A stretch of 64,000 bases of DNA, taken from assembly GCF_003790525.1 (NCBI RefSeq), contig NZ_CP033635.1. One strand, written 5' to 3'. Shown in pieces: positions 25,211 through 50,886 of this stretch; position 1 is the first letter of the stretch, and every line of letters starts with the position of its first letter. Position numbers and translations under genes: made by a program. Source of the stretch: Escherichia coli (GTDB taxonomy: Bacteria; Pseudomonadota; Gammaproteobacteria; Enterobacterales; Enterobacteriaceae). Under the pieces are notes generated by a model. The model had not been told where the DNA came from. It made no database searches and was given only the letters and a program-made list of their open reading frames with translations.

Positions 25211-26065
25211 TTAAATAGAGACTGCGGGTTGCAGACTGACTTTAATGTCAGCTGGTGTCGCGTAATAAGGCGCGGAGGTAATAAAAAGGCGAATGCCGCA
25301 GTCGAGGTAATTTTTGAGTGTTGTCAGATTAATTCCGCCGGTCAGAGCCAGCGTGCAGTGAGGAGCCAGCGACGGTGCTATTTGCGCAATTTCAGTTGCC
25401 TGTTGCGGATTAAATTTGTCGAGCTGAAGTACGTCTGGTTGCGCGCGTAACGCGGCGATTGCCTCTTTCGGCGTGTCGGCTTCAACAACTATTTTCTTCT
25501 CGGGTGCGTGGCGACGTAACTGATTGATTGCGCCTGACCAGTCCTGATTGTCATGAAGAAAATGACGGTGGTTGGCAAACAATAATATGGTTTCCGCACA
25601 TCCGGCACGATGAATCAGTCCTCCGGCAGCCAGAATTGCCTGCGAGGCCAGTAAGCGGGTGCCCGGAATTGCTTTTCGGGTGCAGGCGATATTGCCATCA
25701 GGGTAACGTTCACGAAGTAACGCCAGCATTTGAGCGAGATAATCAGAAACACCGCAACTCCACTCCAGCACATTCTGGACTGCCTTCCATCCCTGATGAA
25801 GTGCTGCGGCATTACCTTGCGCACGGATTAGCCGCTGACCCGCGTTCGCTTGTGAACCGTCGCTGACCGCGTTATCAATAGTTAATCCCAGCGTAGTTAA
25901 CATCTTACACGCGACAGAAATTCCGCTGACGCAGCCGCCCTGACGGTGAAAAAACTCTATATAGCCATGCTGGTGTCCAATATTTAATGCTCGCGTGGTC
26001 AGGTCACCGCCCTGGATATCTTCCAGAAGTAACGCATCGATTTGTGCCTGAGAAAGGAAAATCAT
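25211..26065 (-). CDS. ModD-like protein (quinolinate/nicotinate-nucleotide phosphoribosyltransferase family homolog)
   Basis: 284-aa ORF with type II PRTase-like sequence; family assignment from memory of ModD/QPRTase features. Confidence 0.6.
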   Translation of the reverse strand: MIFLSQAQIDALLLEDIQGGDLTTRALNIGHQHGYIEFFHRQGGCVSGISVACKMLTTLGLTIDNAVSDGSQANAGQRLIRAQGNAAALHQGWKAVQNVLEWSCGVSDYLAQMLALLRERYPDGNIACTRKAIPGTRLLASQAILAAGGLIHRAGCAETILLFANHRHFLHDNQDWSGAINQLRRHAPEKKIVVEADTPKEAIAALRAQPDVLQLDKFNPQQATEIAQIAPSLAPHCTLALTGGINLTTLKNYLDCGIRLFITSAPYYATPADIKVSLQPAVSI

Positions 26066-26874
26066 CGCAGTGCCTCTTGCGGTACGCTATCCCACCAGAT
26101 GAGCGCCCAGTCGCGGCTGGCAGGGGCGAGGGCACGAGCATCTTGTTGTTGATACCAGTGATATAACCGCTCACGCTCATCGTCGTTAAGCGCGCCAAGA
26201 CTCCAGCTGACGTTCTGCTCAAAACGTTCCCAGGTGCTGTTATCCTGTTGGCAATTTTGTCCACGGATAAAATCAACGTGGGCATAAATTCCCATCTGAT
26301 ACAGGACGTTGAGCGCAAATATATAGTTGGGTAATTCGATCACTTCCCGACCAGCCGCCCGCTGAATGGCTGGAGAGACGAACGAGGTGCTGACCAGATG
26401 AGTCGTATAGACGCGAAGCCGTGCCTGATTATTCAGTTTGCTCATTGCCTGGCGCATATCAGCCACCAGAGTGGAGCGGGAAGCCACGGCAATATCGCAG
26501 CGTGGCAGGTCACTCCAGTCCTCTTCCCAGGCGCGCTGGATCCAGTGGACATTGTCTGCCTTTAGCGCGGCGGCGCGACGGGCGGCAACGTTCAGCATCC
26601 CCTGACTGTAATCAACGCCATAAATCGTCGTGAGTTTGTCAGCCAGCGCCAGCGATACGGTACCCGGTCCGCAGCCCATATCGAATAAGGTTTGTGCGCC
26701 TTGCAGATCAATTTTAGCGGTCAGTTGTTGCAGGTAGCTGTCCGTAGGCGAGGCGCAATTTTCCGCCATTTTTTCCGCCCGTTGATCCCAGTGATCCGGC
26801 GTTTTTTCTGTGCGATGGGCCAGCCTGAGTTGCTGAAGGTAAAGGTCTGCAAAATCAATATCATCAATGAGCAT
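26062..26874 (-). CDS. Class I SAM-dependent methyltransferase
   Basis: 270-aa ORF with motif I FDMGCGPGTVS; stop overlaps the ModD-like start. Confidence 0.7.
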   Translation of the reverse strand: MLIDDIDFADLYLQQLRLAHRTEKTPDHWDQRAEKMAENCASPTDSYLQQLTAKIDLQGAQTLFDMGCGPGTVSLALADKLTTIYGVDYSQGMLNVAARRAAALKADNVHWIQRAWEEDWSDLPRCDIAVASRSTLVADMRQAMSKLNNQARLRVYTTHLVSTSFVSPAIQRAAGREVIELPNYIFALNVLYQMGIYAHVDFIRGQNCQQDNSTWERFEQNVSWSLGALNDDERERLYHWYQQQDARALAPASRDWALIWWDSVPQEALR

Positions 26875-26883
26875 GATTTTTCC

Positions 26884-27642
26884 TTAGTGCTTAATTGCAG
26901 AGAGGTGATGGTGAATCTGGTCGGCAGAAACCCGGTACAGGGCAGCCAGTTTTTTCGTTGTTAACTGTTCGGTCGGTAAGCCTTGTGTTACACGTCCATC
27001 TGGCTCTACCTGGATAATGCTGTCGGCAATGGCGTTGGCATGGAGCGGATGATGAGTCGACATTAACATTGTCATGCCGTTATTTTTGAGCTGCGCCAGC
27101 GTGTCCAGTAGTTGGATCTGATGACCGAAATCGAGGCTGGAGGCAGGCTCATCCAGTAATAACAAGCGCGGTTGCTGGACGAGTGCACGGGCGATTAAAG
27201 CCAGCTGACGTTCACCGCCGCTAAGCGTATTCCAGCGTCGTGTCGCCAGATGCAAAATGCCCAGCTTTTCCAGTTGCTCCGTTGCTTTCAGGCGTTCTTG
27301 CTTACCGGGAACGGAAAAAGCGCCTATGGTGGGGGCCAGGCCCATCAACACCATATCCAGCACACTAAAAGCAAAAATGCCGTCGTGCGCCTGCGGCACC
27401 CAGGCAATAGCCTGCGCGCGCTGGCGATGGCTGAGTGTCTGCACAGGGAGGCTATCCAGTAAGATCTCGCCTTTTAATAACGGTATAACGCCAAGAATGG
27501 AGCGCATGAGTGTGGTTTTGCCGCAACCATTGGCTCCTAACAGACAACAAATTGTTCCTTGCGACAGGGTGAAGGACACGTCGCGTAGCACCGGATGGCG
27601 GGAGTAACCCAGAGACGCATGACGGACGGCAAGCAAAGTCAC
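26884..27642 (-). CDS. ABC transporter ATP-binding protein (iron-chelate/FecE-BtuD type)
   Basis: Walker A GANGCGKTT, signature LSGGERQ, Walker B LLLDEP; start set at GTG (GGAGG RBS) overlapping the permease stop. Confidence 0.85.
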   Translation of the reverse strand: MTLLAVRHASLGYSRHPVLRDVSFTLSQGTICCLLGANGCGKTTLMRSILGVIPLLKGEILLDSLPVQTLSHRQRAQAIAWVPQAHDGIFAFSVLDMVLMGLAPTIGAFSVPGKQERLKATEQLEKLGILHLATRRWNTLSGGERQLALIARALVQQPRLLLLDEPASSLDFGHQIQLLDTLAQLKNNGMTMLMSTHHPLHANAIADSIIQVEPDGRVTQGLPTEQLTTKKLAALYRVSADQIHHHLSAIKH

Positions 27643-28619
27643 TGGCGACCTCCGCGTAACAACAAAAACAGGAAAAACGGTGCGCCAACAAAAGCGGTCA
27701 GAATGCCAAGTGGGATTTCTGTTGTTCCAATGCTGCGTGCCAGCGTATCGGTAAGCAGGAGCAGAATCGCGCCAGTACACATTGCCATGGGCAACAGCTG
27801 CTGATGGTTATGACCGGTCAACAAGCGGGCAATGTGCGGAACGACCAGGCCGACCCAACCAATTATGCCCGCTATTGCTACCGTGCTGGCGGTGATGAGT
27901 GTGGCGCAGACAATCAATCCAAAGCGCAGACGTGTCACGTTCAGTCCCAGCGAACGGGCTTCGTCGTCGGAAAGTGTGAGTAAATTCATGCGCCAGCGGA
28001 GAAAAAACAGGGGCAAGGAGCCTATGAGAATGATCGGTGCAGCATAGCAGAGATCGCGTAAGGTCACGGTGGACAGCCCCCCCAGCAACCAGAAGGTAAT
28101 TGACGGTAACTGGGTGTAAGGATCGGCCAGCGTTTTTATTAGCGATATCCCCGCTCCGCACAACGTGCCTAACGCAATACCTACCAGCACCAGGGTTAAG
28201 ATCGGATCGTGGCGGGTCACCCGACGCGTAATCAACCAGACGCCCGCGACCACCATCAGCCCGCCGCAAAATGCGTACAGCTGGATGTAAACAATGGATA
28301 ATCCCCACAGGATTGCCGCGCAGGCACCAAGTCCGGCACCGGCGGAGACGCCTAAAATATCCGGTGACACTAAGGGATTACGGAACATTCCCTGATAGGT
28401 GGTTCCAGCCCCTGCCAGCGCCGCGCCCAGAAACAGCGCAGCAAGAATACGCGGCACGCGGATTTGCCAGAAGACAATTTGTTCCTGCACAGGAACATTT
28501 TCTTGACGAAGAATGAGCGCCAGCAGTTGCTGCATATCGAGATGATAAGCCCCACTTACGGCGGCAAAAGTGATACTGATAGCTGCCAGCAGCAAAATAC
28601 ATCCGTTTACGGTTCTCAT
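27639..28619 (-). CDS. ABC transporter permease (FecCD/BtuC family)
   Basis: 326-aa polytopic membrane protein; start overlaps the binding-protein stop. Confidence 0.85.
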   Translation of the reverse strand: MRTVNGCILLLAAISITFAAVSGAYHLDMQQLLALILRQENVPVQEQIVFWQIRVPRILAALFLGAALAGAGTTYQGMFRNPLVSPDILGVSAGAGLGACAAILWGLSIVYIQLYAFCGGLMVVAGVWLITRRVTRHDPILTLVLVGIALGTLCGAGISLIKTLADPYTQLPSITFWLLGGLSTVTLRDLCYAAPIILIGSLPLFFLRWRMNLLTLSDDEARSLGLNVTRLRFGLIVCATLITASTVAIAGIIGWVGLVVPHIARLLTGHNHQQLLPMAMCTGAILLLLTDTLARSIGTTEIPLGILTAFVGAPFFLFLLLRGGRQ

Positions 28620-29641
28620 TAGCTCGCCACCAATTTTTGATAGTCGGCGTCACTGAGTGAACAATGCCAGAACAGTTGGGCGTAATGCTGCATGTCACTT
28701 TTAAACTGGCGATTGATGGCGGGATCCAGCCAGGCGTGAAGTCTGCGTAATCCCAGAAGACGGTTGATTCCCGGCGGGGCATCCAGCCAGCCAAAGGGCA
28801 GGCCACTTAAAAATAAGATGCGTTGTTCCGCAACCGCTTTCACGCCCTGCCAGAGAGGATCACGACGAATAAAATCTGCAGTAACGGCCTCCTGAACCAG
28901 AATAATATCCGGCTGCCAGCGCAGGAGATTTTCCATGGAAACCTGTGTCAGACCGTGGCGATCGGCTATTTGCGCGACGTTGTGCAAACCTAATAATTCC
29001 GCCGCCTCGGTATGCAACGAACCCTGTAAGCCCGTTTCCAGCCCTCGAGGACCGCGCGCAGCATAAAAGCTGAGGTTAGCGGCGGGTGAGGTGGCGAATG
29101 CCTGAGCTTCACCAACGAAGCGGCTGGCGAGATTGGCTTGTTCTGCGGCGCGGTGCTCTTCGCCTAACGTTTTGCCAAGCGTTGTTAACTGTTCTGCTGA
29201 TTGTTCCAGTTTCCCGTTAAGCAATAACCAGGGTATTTGTGTCTGTTCGCTAACCTGCCGTGCCTGGGAGATCCAGGTTTCATCCGTATTGCCGCAATCA
29301 ACGACCAAATCGGGATGTAACGCCATAAGCCCTTCCAGCGAGAGTGTGCTGGCGCGCCCGGCGAGTCGTCCCAGCCTGGGGAACTGGCGAATGTGCTCTG
29401 GCAATGGAATTAATGCCTGACGGGCAAAATCAAAAGAGGAAAAACCGACCATTTTTTCTGGCGCGACAGCCAGCAATAGTAAATCGGCGGGCGCGCCTGC
29501 GCTGACGATGCGTGTAATGTTTTGGGCTTCGGGAAGCGTCAGTGAGGACCAGAATTTGACTGATTGTGCAAAGGACGGCAGATGATGCAGGAACAATGTC
29601 GACGCAAGAATCTGTGTAAACCTCCGTCTGGTTAGTGACAT
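28619..29641 (-). CDS. Periplasmic substrate-binding protein (TroA/BtuF/FhuD-like) with Tat-like signal peptide
   Basis: Start set at internal ATG with RBS-like cagga; N-terminus MSLTRRRFTQILASTLFLHHLPSFAQ. Confidence 0.7.
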   Translation of the reverse strand: MSLTRRRFTQILASTLFLHHLPSFAQSVKFWSSLTLPEAQNITRIVSAGAPADLLLLAVAPEKMVGFSSFDFARQALIPLPEHIRQFPRLGRLAGRASTLSLEGLMALHPDLVVDCGNTDETWISQARQVSEQTQIPWLLLNGKLEQSAEQLTTLGKTLGEEHRAAEQANLASRFVGEAQAFATSPAANLSFYAARGPRGLETGLQGSLHTEAAELLGLHNVAQIADRHGLTQVSMENLLRWQPDIILVQEAVTADFIRRDPLWQGVKAVAEQRILFLSGLPFGWLDAPPGINRLLGLRRLHAWLDPAINRQFKSDMQHYAQLFWHCSLSDADYQKLVAS

Positions 29642-29970
29642 AAGTAATATCCTGATAATTAAAACCGCTATATACTTACACATATAGCGAAAAAGATCAT
29701 GTTTGATGTCAAAATTTGTCTAAAGAGACAGAATGATTTGCTTGTTTCTTAAATAACACTTTGTTCCACAAGAAAATTGTCAGGGAGAATGGGGAGTGGG
29801 GGAAAATATAAATAGAGGTGTAATGATTAACAAGTTGATAAAATAAAATTAAAATCTTCTCTAATAAAAGAAAATAAAGGCATAGACCGTAGAAAGAGTG
29901 GTATTTCGTGGTGAAGAAAGAGCAATGCCAATTTTATGCATGTAATGGCATTGCTCGATATACAGTAAAG

Positions 29971-31668
29971 TTAAGGCGTAGGTTCCGCCTCTTTTTGTTT
30001 TAGCGGCTGTGTTGTTGATTCACTGAGTGGACGCGTCGCCGGAACATTGTCACACGGTTGCTCTTTCGGGCAGATCAAATCCAGCATTTTCAGCGTCACG
30101 CCATTGGTCCAGCCAAAGCCATCCTGTAATGGATATTCGCCACCGCCGCCCCCTGTTCCGGTGGCGCTGACATCATATTTTTCCACCAGCTTTTTCTCCC
30201 GGTCATAGGTGTTCTGAACATTGGTCAGGAAGTGCCAGCTAATGTCCATCGCCACCTCTTTTTGCCCGTAGTTTTGTAATCCTTCTGTCGCGACCCACTG
30301 CAACGGTGCCCAGCCGTTTGGCGCATCCCATTGTTGTCCACTTTTCACCGACGTGGTGTTCAGGCCGCCGGGTTGCAGCAGATGTGTTTTCGTCGCCGTC
30401 GCCATTTTGCTGGCGCGATCTTTCGCTGCCGCATTGACGTACAGCGGGAACAGGGCGGCCGCGGTTAACTGATTGCGCACTTTATGACTTTTCAGGTCGT
30501 AATCGGCATACCAGCCTTGTTGATCGTTCCACAGGTATTTTTCGATCCCTTTTTGACGGGCATTCGCCAGCGTTTCGTACTGGTTTGCCATCGCGTTATC
30601 TCCGGCAGCTTTGCTGGCGCGGGCGAGGATTTTTTCCATTTTAAACATCAGGCTGTTCAGATCGACCGGTACGATGCTGGTGGTGCGTAAGGTATTTAAC
30701 TGCTGCGGATTGTCCATCCAGCGCGAGCTGAAATCCCAGCCAGACGCAGCGGCAGAGCGCAGATCGCGGTAAATTTCAGTGGCAGGTCGATTCGGATTGC
30801 TTTTGGCGGTGGCAATATCTTCCACCCATGACTCTGGTCGTGGCGTATCGCGATCGTCCCAGTAGCGGTTGAGAAGGGTACCATCCTGAAGTTTGACAAC
30901 GCGTTTTTCCTGTTGTCCGGCTTGCAGGTTTTCAACACCGTCCATCCAGTAAGCATATTCTTTTTGCATTTGCGGCAGGTATTGTTTCAACGCGGCATCG
31001 CCTTCATGCTGCGCCAGTAACTCTACCATCAGGGCAAAGAAGGGCGGCTGCGAGCGGCTTAAATAGTAACTGCGGTTGCCGTTGGGAATATGACCGTAAG
31101 TGTCTATTTCATGAGCAAAATTGGCCACCATATCCGCGACTTTATCCCAGTGACCGCTTTCGGCAAGTCCTAACATGGTGAAGTAACTGTCCCAGTAATA
31201 TACCTCGCGAAAACGTCCGCCCGGCACGACATAAGGTTCCGGCAGCGGTAACAGAGAATCCCATTTTTCGGTATTTTCGGTAGCACGCGTTAATACCGGC
31301 CAAAGTCCGTCAATATGTTCGCGCAGTGACTGCCCCTCTGGCGGAACATATTTCTCGCCCTCTTTTGGCAGGGTGAAATTGACGTTAACGAAATGGCGCA
31401 GATCAAATCCGCTCTGGTTTTGCTGCATCCGATAATCAGCAAGGATCATCAGCGGATCGCTGTTCGGCACGGCATCGGCAAAGGTTTTTTGGTCCGGAAA
31501 AAGTTTGGCGTTTTGCACATCATTAAACAGCGGCCCTAATAAAATATCAGGCGGCTGTGGCGTTACCGATGTTTCTTCTGCCTGCACCGATAGCGCAGCA
31601 AAACACAAAAAGATGCAGGCTGGAATTAACGCCATTTTTTGCGGGCGAGAAGGGGTGGGGGATTTCAT
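29971..31668 (-). CDS. treA: Periplasmic trehalase
   Basis: 565-aa [24 protein letters not shown]...; matches TreA. Confidence 0.95.
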
Positions 31669-50235: not shown

Positions 50236-50285
50236 ATAGCCGCCTTGTTGTAATGACAACATTTTGCGGCTATTCTTGAATTGTT

Positions 50286-50350
50286 CTGGTTCAAGATTAG
50301 CCCCCGTTCTGTTGTCAGGTTGTACCTCTCAACGTGCGGGGGTTTTCTCT
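50286..50350 (+). ncRNA. rdl: Rdl antisense RNA (antitoxin), copy 1; boundaries approximate
   Basis: Antisense to the ldr leader; ends in a hairpin (cccccg...cggggg) followed by TTTTCTCTTT; placement from recalled Ldr/Rdl architecture. Confidence 0.4.
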
Positions 50351-50770: not shown

Positions 50771-50821
50771 ATAGCCGCCTTGTTGTAATGACAACATTTT
50801 GCGGCTATTCTTGAATTGTTG

Positions 50822-50886
50822 ATGGTTCAAGATTAGCCCCCGTTCTGTTGTCAGGTTTTACCTCTCAACGTGCGGGGGTTTTCTCT
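50822..50886 (+). ncRNA. rdl: Rdl antisense RNA (antitoxin), copy 2; boundaries approximate
   Basis: Same hairpin plus U-tract as copy 1. Confidence 0.4.

What the first reader, a model, noticed from the sequence alone, without database searches (positions are those of the whole stretch)
26884..27780. Apparent 140-bp overlap of the ATPase and permease ORFs resolves to a GTG start with 4-nt coupling
The ORF track extends the ATPase frame to 27780, deep into the permease gene. A GTG at 27642 preceded by GGAGG overlaps the permease TGA stop (GTGA), giving a 252-aa ATPase of normal size. This is worth recording because automated annotation may call the long form.
Basis: seen in the sequence. Interest (0 to 1): 0.25.

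Follow-up and report, generated by a model that had tools for sequence, protein, structure and literature searches.

The report
Routine start-codon call, ABC ATPase gene
The apparent 140-base overlap between two transporter genes comes from listing the longest possible reading frame; the ATPase really starts at a GTG that overlaps the upstream gene's stop codon by four bases, as the reference annotation already says, so this is ordinary.

Summary
The window is Escherichia coli SMS-3-5. The minus-strand ORF 26884..27780 (298 aa) is only the longest mechanical ORF. GTG 27642, six bases after GGAGG (27653-27649), overlaps the permease stop as GTGA and gives a 252-aa ATPase.

- RefSeq annotates exactly this 759-nt gene in all four strains checked.
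- About 120 homologues from many genera are 249-256 aa and none aligns with the 46-aa extension. Met1-to-Walker-A-lysine distance is 41-43 in 123 of 126 proteins; the only value of 88 is the long form.
- Citrobacter and Hafnia have ATG at the same position. Citrobacter, Hafnia and Shewanella have no in-frame start codon upstream.
- In the 138-nt overlap, substitutions fall on the permease's third codon positions: 2/46 amino-acid changes in the permease frame against 17/45 in the extension frame.
- The -1 frame of this permease has only 2 stops in 326 codons, so a long open stretch is expected.

The long form does exist in a few older GenBank records, so the warning was fair. Already known; low interest.

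In passing: a conserved ModE-type operator precedes the operon, which suggests molybdate rather than iron control.

The parts
26884..27642 (-). ABC transporter ATP-binding protein gene, true extent (252 aa, stop included); RefSeq WP_000173310.1
   Evidence: RefSeq CDS of 759 nt. Pfam ABC_tran 106.8 bits. NCBIfam profiles align from residue 3-4 of this form to profile positions 2-5.
27640..27642 (-). GTG start codon of the ATPase, sharing TG with the permease stop (GTGA)
   Evidence: The homologous position is GTG in E. albertii and Shewanella and ATG in Citrobacter and Hafnia.
27649..27653 (-). Shine-Dalgarno GGAGG, 6 nt upstream of the GTG, inside the last codons of the permease gene
   Evidence: duplex with the 16S 3' tail is -10.2 kcal/mol. 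It is conserved in E. albertii, and SD-like purine runs are present in Hafnia (-11.4), Shewanella (-9.4) and Citrobacter (-5.7).
27643..27780 (-). Spurious 46-codon N-terminal extension of the mechanical ORF; in reality the 3' end of the permease gene read in its -1 frame
27639..28619 (-). FecCD-family (type II importer) permease gene, 326 aa; its stop TGA is at 27641-27639
   Evidence: FecCD 299 bits; best solved relative is HI1471/MolB, 9.4e-65. RefSeq annotation.
28619..29641 (-). Periplasmic substrate-binding protein gene (340 aa by RefSeq); its TAA stop overlaps the permease ATG by 1 nt (TAATG)
26062..26874 (-). Class I SAM-dependent methyltransferase gene, starting 9 nt after the ATPase stop
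25211..26065 (-). modD (QRPTase-like) gene; its ATG overlaps the methyltransferase TGA by 4 nt (ATGA)
   Evidence: TIGR01334 scores 500.7 bits against a cut-off of 178.85..
23215..25185 (-). TonB-dependent receptor gene, the last gene of the cluster (RefSeq start ATG 25185)
29664..29691 (-). ModE-operator-like palindrome TTCGCTATATG-TGTAAG-TATATAGCGGT, ending 22 nt before the binding-protein start codon
   Evidence: One search flagged it as a hairpin. One search gave 18/22 to my search pattern, the only hit of 16/22 or better in the window, and found it conserved in four other genera. The published consensus is in PMC545781.

Best explanation
The ATPase gene of this binding-protein-dependent ABC importer begins at GTG 27642 and encodes a 252-aa protein. 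Its ribosome-binding site (GGAGG) lies inside the last codons of the permease gene, and its start codon overlaps the permease stop codon (GTGA). Ribosomes finishing the permease are therefore positioned to start the ATPase at once, by termination-reinitiation, by SD-assisted initiation, or both. This would help keep the two subunits of the BtuCD-like complex in balance. The 298-aa 'long form' is a by-product of listing ORFs from the first possible start after a stop. The 46 extra codons are the permease's C-terminal coding sequence read in a frame that happens to be almost free of stop codons. Shown here: the position of the start, and the lack of conservation and of selection on the extension. 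Inferred: that translation of the two genes is actually coupled.
For: (1) Sequence: GGAGG, 6 nt, then GTGA. SD duplex energy is -10.2 kcal/mol at GTG 27642 against -1.5 at GTG 27780.
(2) RefSeq annotates a 759-nt CDS overlapping the permease by 4 nt in SMS-3-5, O157:H7 Z1767, FDAARGOS_943 and clone D i14.
(3) In the 5.8-billion-protein search with the long form as query, no hit covers more than 85% of it (252/298 = 84.6%). Full-length homologues are 249-256 aa. Their N-termini read MTLLAV/MTLLTV/MAMVVF/MTIVNF. Met1-to-Walker-A-lysine distance is 41-43 in 123 of 126 proteins with the motif; the single value of 88 is the deposited long form.
(4) DNA of orthologous loci: E. albertii GTGA, Citrobacter ATGA, Shewanella GTGA, Hafnia TGATG. 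Citrobacter, Hafnia and Shewanella have no in-frame ATG/GTG/TTG between the upstream stop and the conserved start. Hafnia has a stop 31 codons upstream. In E. albertii the codon equivalent to GTG 27780 encodes Gly.
(5) Across the 138-nt overlap, E. coli against E. albertii differs at permease codon positions 1/2/3 by 4/0/15. That gives 2/46 amino-acid changes in the permease frame but 17/45 in the extension frame. Against Citrobacter the figures are 10/46 and 29/45.
(6) Solved relatives begin where the short form begins: FhuC residue 10, LptB residue 4 and HI1470 residue 18 align with long-form residues 48, 50 and 62. NCBIfam profiles align from position 2-5 to residue 3-4 of the short form.
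(7) Overlaps of 4 nt and 1 nt with an SD in the upstream gene are the common arrangement for coupled gene pairs and were shown to couple translation in E. coli test cases (PMC6728339; PMC10666635). The same operon also has TAATG and ATGA junctions.
Against: There is no direct measurement of the N-terminus or of initiation in this strain, and E. coli K-12, for which most ribosome profiling exists, lacks the cluster. A TTG two codons downstream (27636) uses the same SD and cannot be excluded by sequence alone. Predicted RNA structure around the junction is no stronger than in shuffled sequence (z = 0.48), so there is no sign of an SD-sequestering hairpin that would make the ATPase strictly dependent on permease translation. 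With so strong an SD, independent initiation is also plausible. Most homologue N-termini are themselves gene-caller predictions, although the DNA-level arguments do not depend on them.
Confidence: 0.93

Rival explanations
1. The ATPase starts at TTG 27636, two codons downstream of the GTG (250 aa), so there is no start/stop overlap but a 2-nt gap after the permease stop.
For: TTG is in frame and lies within reach of the same GGAGG.
Against: The spacing from GGAGG would be 12 nt, longer than the usual 5-9 (established knowledge). The equivalent codon is CTT in Citrobacter and ATC in Shewanella, so it is not a conserved start, whereas codon 1 is GTG or ATG in all five genera. RefSeq uses the GTG.
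Confidence: 0.04
2. The 298-aa long form, starting at GTG 27780, is a real protein, or a real minor isoform, with a 46-aa N-terminal extension encoded in overlap with the permease.
For: The frame is open and begins with GTG. The long form has been deposited by some annotation pipelines.
Against: There is no SD and no homologue with the extension. The start codon is absent in E. albertii, Citrobacter, Hafnia and Shewanella, and Hafnia has an in-frame stop. The extension frame evolves as unconstrained sequence (17/45 changes against 2/46). The open frame is explained by composition: 2 stops in 326 codons.
Confidence: 0.01
3. A fraction of ribosomes slips by -1 in the U-rich stretch near the permease end (CCGTTTTTCCTGTTTTTGTTG, about 27680-27660) and makes a permease-ATPase fusion, since the ATPase frame is the permease -1 frame and is open there.
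For: The frame relationship and the open -1 frame are seen. U-runs are present. A natural 26-bp deletion in strain FDAARGOS_943 produces exactly such an in-frame fusion ORF.
Against: There is no canonical X XXY YYZ heptamer and no significant downstream structure. The U-runs are explained by the conserved Phe-Phe-Leu motif of FecCD permeases. The strain with the deletion also has a pseudogenised binding-protein gene, so it reflects decay and not design.
Confidence: 0.01

Closest known systems
Overlapping stop/start gene pairs (ATGA, GTGA, TGATG) translated by termination-reinitiation, as analysed in E. coli and Haloferax (PMC6728339; PMC10666635; review PMC12548453)
   Same: There is a 4-nt overlap, an SD motif inside the 3' end of the upstream gene, and the two genes encode subunits of one heteromeric complex. 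Other junctions in the same operon are of the -1 and -4 types.
   Different: The start codon is GTG, not ATG, though it is ATG in Citrobacter and Hafnia. Coupling was not measured here, and no SD-masking structure is predicted.
MolBC-A (HI1470/HI1471/HI1472) of Haemophilus influenzae, a type II ABC importer for molybdate/tungstate (PMC4031551)
   Same: The best solved relative of the permease is HI1471 (9.4e-65). The best single-domain relative of the ATPase is HI1470 (1.6e-35). A modD gene is in the cluster, and a ModE-type operator lies upstream.
   Different: The binding protein is only weakly similar to HI1472/MolA (1.2e-07 over 74 residues). This cluster additionally has a methyltransferase and a TonB-dependent receptor. 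The substrate is untested.
BtuCD-F, FhuBC-D and HmuUV type II importers (vitamin B12, hydroxamate siderophores, haem)
   Same: The architecture is the same: a FecCD permease, an ATPase of about 250 aa and a cluster A binding protein. All are detected as homologues.
   Different: No NCBIfam equivalog model reaches its cut-off for the ATPase, permease or binding protein, so none of these substrate assignments can be transferred.

Membership tests
ABC transporter nucleotide-binding domain (Pfam PF00005 ABC_tran) | Profile match above Pfam's gathering score | tested here: met
   106.8 bits against a cut-off of 25. The match begins at residue 65 of the long form, which is residue 19 of the short form.
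ABC transporter nucleotide-binding domain (Pfam PF00005 ABC_tran) | Walker A (GxxGxGKT/S), ABC signature (LSGGQ-like) and Walker B (hhhhDEP) motifs | tested here: met
   Read directly from the translation: GANGCGKTT, LSGGERQ and LLLLDEP, followed by STHH (H-loop).
Type II (BtuCD-like) binding-protein-dependent importer | ATPase encoded beside a FecCD-family permease and a Peripla_BP_2 binding protein | tested here: met
   (FecCD 299 bits; Peripla_BP_2 61.7 bits). Gene order is and is conserved in four other genera.
Specific substrate families (FecE, FhuC, haem HmuV-type, corrinoid BtuD-type, F420-0 type) | NCBIfam equivalog score at or above the curated cut-off | tested here: not met
   the best scores are 177 against 372 (F420-0), 164 against 261 (haem), 159 against 537 (corrinoid), 152 against 375 (FecE) and 123 against 433 (FhuC).
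Translationally coupled overlapping gene pair | [quoted passage not shown] | tested here: met
   GTGA at 27642-27639. An overlap is conserved, as GTGA, ATGA or TGATG, in five genera.
Translationally coupled overlapping gene pair | SD motif for the downstream gene inside the upstream coding sequence | tested here: met
   GGAGG at 27653-27649, -10.2 kcal/mol.
Translationally coupled overlapping gene pair | Translation of the downstream gene depends on translation of the upstream gene | not testable with these tools
   This needs reporter constructs with a premature stop in the permease, as was done for other E. coli pairs in PMC6728339.
ModE-regulated operon | Operator matching ATCGNTATATA-N6-TATATANCGAT near the promoter | tested here: met
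   TTCGCTATATG-TGTAAG-TATATAGCGGT scores 18/22 against my search pattern, which is 17/20 against the specified positions of the consensus quoted in PMC545781. Boxes of 18-19/22 sit at the same place in four other genera.
ModE-regulated operon | ModE binding and molybdate-dependent repression | not testable with these tools
   This needs a gel shift or ChIP, and expression measured with and without molybdate in a modE mutant.

The most novel reading that the evidence does not exclude
Because the ATPase frame is the permease's -1 frame and stays open for 56 codons before the GTG, a small fraction of ribosomes might slip at the U-rich Phe-Phe-Leu-Phe-Leu codons. That would produce a covalent permease-ATPase fusion as a programmed minor product. 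A natural 26-bp deletion in one strain makes such a fusion ORF constitutively.
Probability: 0.01. Interest if true: 0.45.

Novelty: already known. Interest (0 to 1): 0.05.

Why it matters
For the finding itself, very little. It confirms that the reference start site is right. It also identifies a handful of older GenBank/UniProt entries (for example UniRef100_F4SXH3, 298 aa) that carry a spurious 46-residue N-terminus. That is useful only as an annotation clean-up and as a reminder that the -1 frame of membrane-protein genes is naturally poor in stop codons.

The context may matter more. The six-gene cluster is named 'iron' in RefSeq, is present in about 39% of complete E. coli genomes, and carries a conserved ModE-type operator. 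It may therefore be a molybdenum-responsive TonB-dependent uptake system.

Tried and rejected
(1) I tried to count how many E. coli genomes carry the 26-bp deletion seen in FDAARGOS_943 by searching with the deletion junction. The search joins the two flanking pieces into one place, so all 2140 records scored 100% coverage and the count is uninformative.

(2) Folding 120 nt around the junction to look for an SD-masking hairpin gave z = 0.48, no better than shuffles. No structural argument for obligatory coupling can be made.

(3) The ungapped comparison of the first 46 ATPase codons between E. coli and Citrobacter (last lines) is invalid, because Citrobacter has a one-codon insertion near codon 14. 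I ignored it and use only the upstream 138-nt comparison, which is gap-free.

(4) Literature searches for the operon were swamped by unrelated uses of 'ModD' (type III methyltransferase alleles) and 'mode'. The primary paper on ModE sites (Studholme and Pau 2003) is not held, so the consensus is cited second-hand from PMC545781.

(5) Rfam found no riboswitch or other RNA family in or near the operon.

(6) The promoter and terminator scan of 23000-30100 gave counts equal to the shuffled expectation. I used it only because it flagged the palindrome.

Full report
**What the window is.** The 1.1-kb stretch around the finding is 100% identical to Escherichia coli SMS-3-5 (NC_010498.1, 1970155-1971255). 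It is present at 95-100% identity in 2139 of 5426 complete E. coli genomes. It lies in a six-gene, same-strand cluster between treA and ymgE. The genes, in order, are:
- a periplasmic binding protein
- a FecCD permease
- an ABC ATPase
- a class I SAM methyltransferase
- ModD
- a TonB-dependent receptor

**The observation.** The mechanical ORF list gives a minus-strand ORF 26884..27780 (GTG start, 298 aa) that overlaps the permease ORF 27639..28619 by 142 nt. The minus-strand sequence reads GTTACGCGGAGGTCGCCAGTGACTTTG. GGAGG is at 27653-27649, followed by six bases. GTG is at 27642-27640 and the permease TGA at 27641-27639. From this GTG the ATPase is 759 nt, or 252 aa. Every number in the finding checks out.

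**Whether the long open frame means anything.** It does not.
- The tool lists ORFs from the first ATG/GTG/TTG after a stop, so the 298-aa form is only an upper bound.
- The ATPase frame is the -1 frame of the permease. Across the whole permease gene that frame contains 2 stop codons in 326 codons, against 24 in the +1 frame. Long open stretches there follow from the composition of a hydrophobic membrane-protein gene.
- The GTG at 27780 has no Shine-Dalgarno pairing (-1.5 kcal/mol). GTG 27642 has -10.2 kcal/mol at ideal spacing.

**Evidence from annotation.** NCBI's RefSeq pipeline annotates a 759-nt CDS (WP_000173310.1 or WP_000173324.1) overlapping the permease by 4 nt. This holds in SMS-3-5, O157:H7 Z1767, FDAARGOS_943 and clone D i14. 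An exact-sequence look-up shows the 252-aa protein on at least 1000 contigs. The 298-aa form exists in only a few deposited records: AER84057.1 and AER88976.1 from the original clone D i14/i2 GenBank entries, EGI17390.1, and UniRef100_F4SXH3.

**Evidence from homologues.**
- Searching 5.8 billion proteins with the long form, no hit covers more than 85% of it; the short form is 84.6% of it. Full-length homologues are 249-256 aa. They come from E. albertii, Citrobacter, Salmonella, Leclercia, Enterobacter, Klebsiella, Raoultella, Hafnia, Edwardsiella, Serratia, Pantoea and Shewanella.
- The 306-348-aa variants are C-terminal frameshift read-throughs that still begin MTLLAV.
- Among the proteins retrieved, the distance from Met1 to the Walker A lysine is 41-43 in 123 of 126. 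The single value of 88 is the deposited long form.
- Solved relatives begin at the same place: FhuC residue 10, LptB residue 4 and HI1470 residue 18 align with long-form residues 48, 50 and 62.
- NCBIfam profiles align from their positions 2-5 to residues 3-4 of the short form.

**Evidence from DNA, independent of gene callers.** I fetched the orthologous loci from E. albertii, Citrobacter, Hafnia and Shewanella. All have the same gene order, except that Shewanella lacks modD. The junctions are GTGA, ATGA, TGATG and GTGA respectively.
- Citrobacter and Hafnia use ATG at the aligned start.
- Citrobacter, Hafnia and Shewanella have no in-frame ATG/GTG/TTG anywhere between the upstream stop and that start.
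- Hafnia has an in-frame stop 31 codons upstream.
- In E. albertii the codon equivalent to GTG 27780 encodes Gly.

In the gap-free 138-nt overlap, E. coli and E. albertii differ at permease codon positions 1/2/3 by 4/0/15. This changes 2 of 46 permease residues but 17 of 45 'extension' residues. Against Citrobacter the figures are 10/46 and 29/45. Only the permease frame is under purifying selection.

**How it most likely works.** The ATPase is translated from GTG 27642 using the GGAGG embedded in the permease's last codons. The stop and start overlap, so a ribosome terminating on TGA is two bases from the GTG and can reinitiate. This -4 arrangement, and the -1 arrangement, with an internal SD has been shown experimentally to couple translation in several E. 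coli gene pairs, usually with a strong contribution from the SD (PMC6728339; PMC10666635 and PMC12548453). The same operon uses TAATG between the binding protein and the permease, and ATGA between the methyltransferase and ModD, which fits a tightly packed, co-translated operon.

The start site is shown; the coupling is inferred. The local RNA fold is no more stable than shuffled sequence (z = 0.48). Independent initiation at this strong SD therefore probably contributes as well.

**Rivals.**
- TTG 27636, two codons downstream, shares the SD but at 12-nt spacing, and it is not a start codon in Citrobacter or Shewanella. I give it about 4%.
- A real 298-aa isoform gets about 1%, for the reasons above.
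- A programmed -1 slip in the U-rich FFLFL codons producing a permease-ATPase fusion also gets about 1%. There is no canonical slippery heptamer and no stimulatory structure, and the U-runs are explained by conserved Phe/Leu residues.

**Comparison with what is known.** The protein is an ordinary member of the ABC ATPase family. Pfam ABC_tran scores above threshold, and the Walker A, signature and Walker B motifs are present. It belongs to a type II (BtuCD-like) importer. No substrate-specific NCBIfam model reaches its cut-off. The closest solved system is H. influenzae MolBC (HI1470/HI1471), a molybdate/tungstate importer (PMC4031551).

**Verdict.** The start is already in the reference annotation, so the finding is ordinary and of low interest.

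**Seen in passing.**
- The palindrome TTCGCTATATG-TGTAAG-TATATAGCGGT (29691-29664) lies 22 nt before the binding-protein start. It fits the E. coli ModE operator consensus ATCGNTATATA-N6-TATATANCGAT (PMC545781) at 17 of 20 specified positions.
- It is the only site of 16/22 or better in the 64-kb window. It recurs at 18-19/22, 17-24 nt before the start codon, in E. albertii, Citrobacter, Hafnia and Shewanella.
- Together with modD and the MolBC-like core, this suggests the cluster responds to molybdate and not to iron, contrary to the name RefSeq gives the binding protein.
- I did not test this further. I also could not establish whether it has been published.

Noticed in passing
window 29664-29691 (minus strand), upstream of the binding-protein gene: There is a palindrome TTCGCTATATG-TGTAAG-TATATAGCGGT matching the E. 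coli ModE operator consensus. It is the only strong match in the window and is conserved at the same position in E. albertii, Citrobacter, Hafnia and Shewanella. With modD and the MolB/MolC-like core, it suggests a molybdate-regulated TonB-dependent uptake operon that RefSeq names 'iron'.
   Followed up: partly
window 29641 versus 29683 (minus strand): This is the same kind of longest-ORF artefact. The mechanical ORF for the binding protein starts at ATG 29683 (354 aa), an ATG that lies inside the ModE-like palindrome. RefSeq and the four other genera start at ATG 29641 (340 aa). The N-terminus MSLTRRRFTQIL resembles a twin-arginine export signal.
   Followed up: partly
window 25185 versus 25206 (minus strand): The TonB-dependent receptor ORF is listed from TTG 25206 (663 aa), but RefSeq starts it at ATG 25185 (656 aa).
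   Followed up: no
L002 (E. coli FDAARGOS_943) about 1690-1715; equivalent to window about 27665-27690: A 26-bp deletion between two TTTTGTTG direct repeats removes the permease C-terminus and puts the permease in frame with the ATPase, giving a 580-codon open frame. The binding-protein gene in the same strain has an internal stop, so the cluster is decaying there. I could not determine its frequency.
   Followed up: partly
L003 (E. coli O157:H7 Z1767) 2527-3339: The methyltransferase gene of the cluster is annotated as a pseudogene (internal stop) in this O157:H7 strain, while the transporter genes are intact.
   Followed up: no
window 23215-29691 as a whole: The six-gene cluster is accessory in E. 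coli. It is present in 2139 of 5426 complete genomes, with 8 copies on plasmids. It sits between treA and ymgE. The same gene order occurs in E. albertii and Citrobacter (also next to treA) and in Hafnia; Shewanella has it without modD.
   Followed up: partly
window 6970-7048 (+); 50283-50348 (+); 50819-50884 (+): Rfam matches above gathering score: C0299 sRNA (106.7 bits) and two tandem rdlD antitoxin RNAs of the ldr/rdl type I toxin-antitoxin family (86.3 and 83.6 bits).
   Followed up: no
window 26062-26065 and 28619 (minus strand): Other junctions in the operon are also overlapping: methyltransferase/ModD ATGA (4 nt) and binding protein/permease TAATG (1 nt). The ATPase-to-methyltransferase junction has a 9-nt gap containing AAGGAAAAA.
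   Followed up: yes
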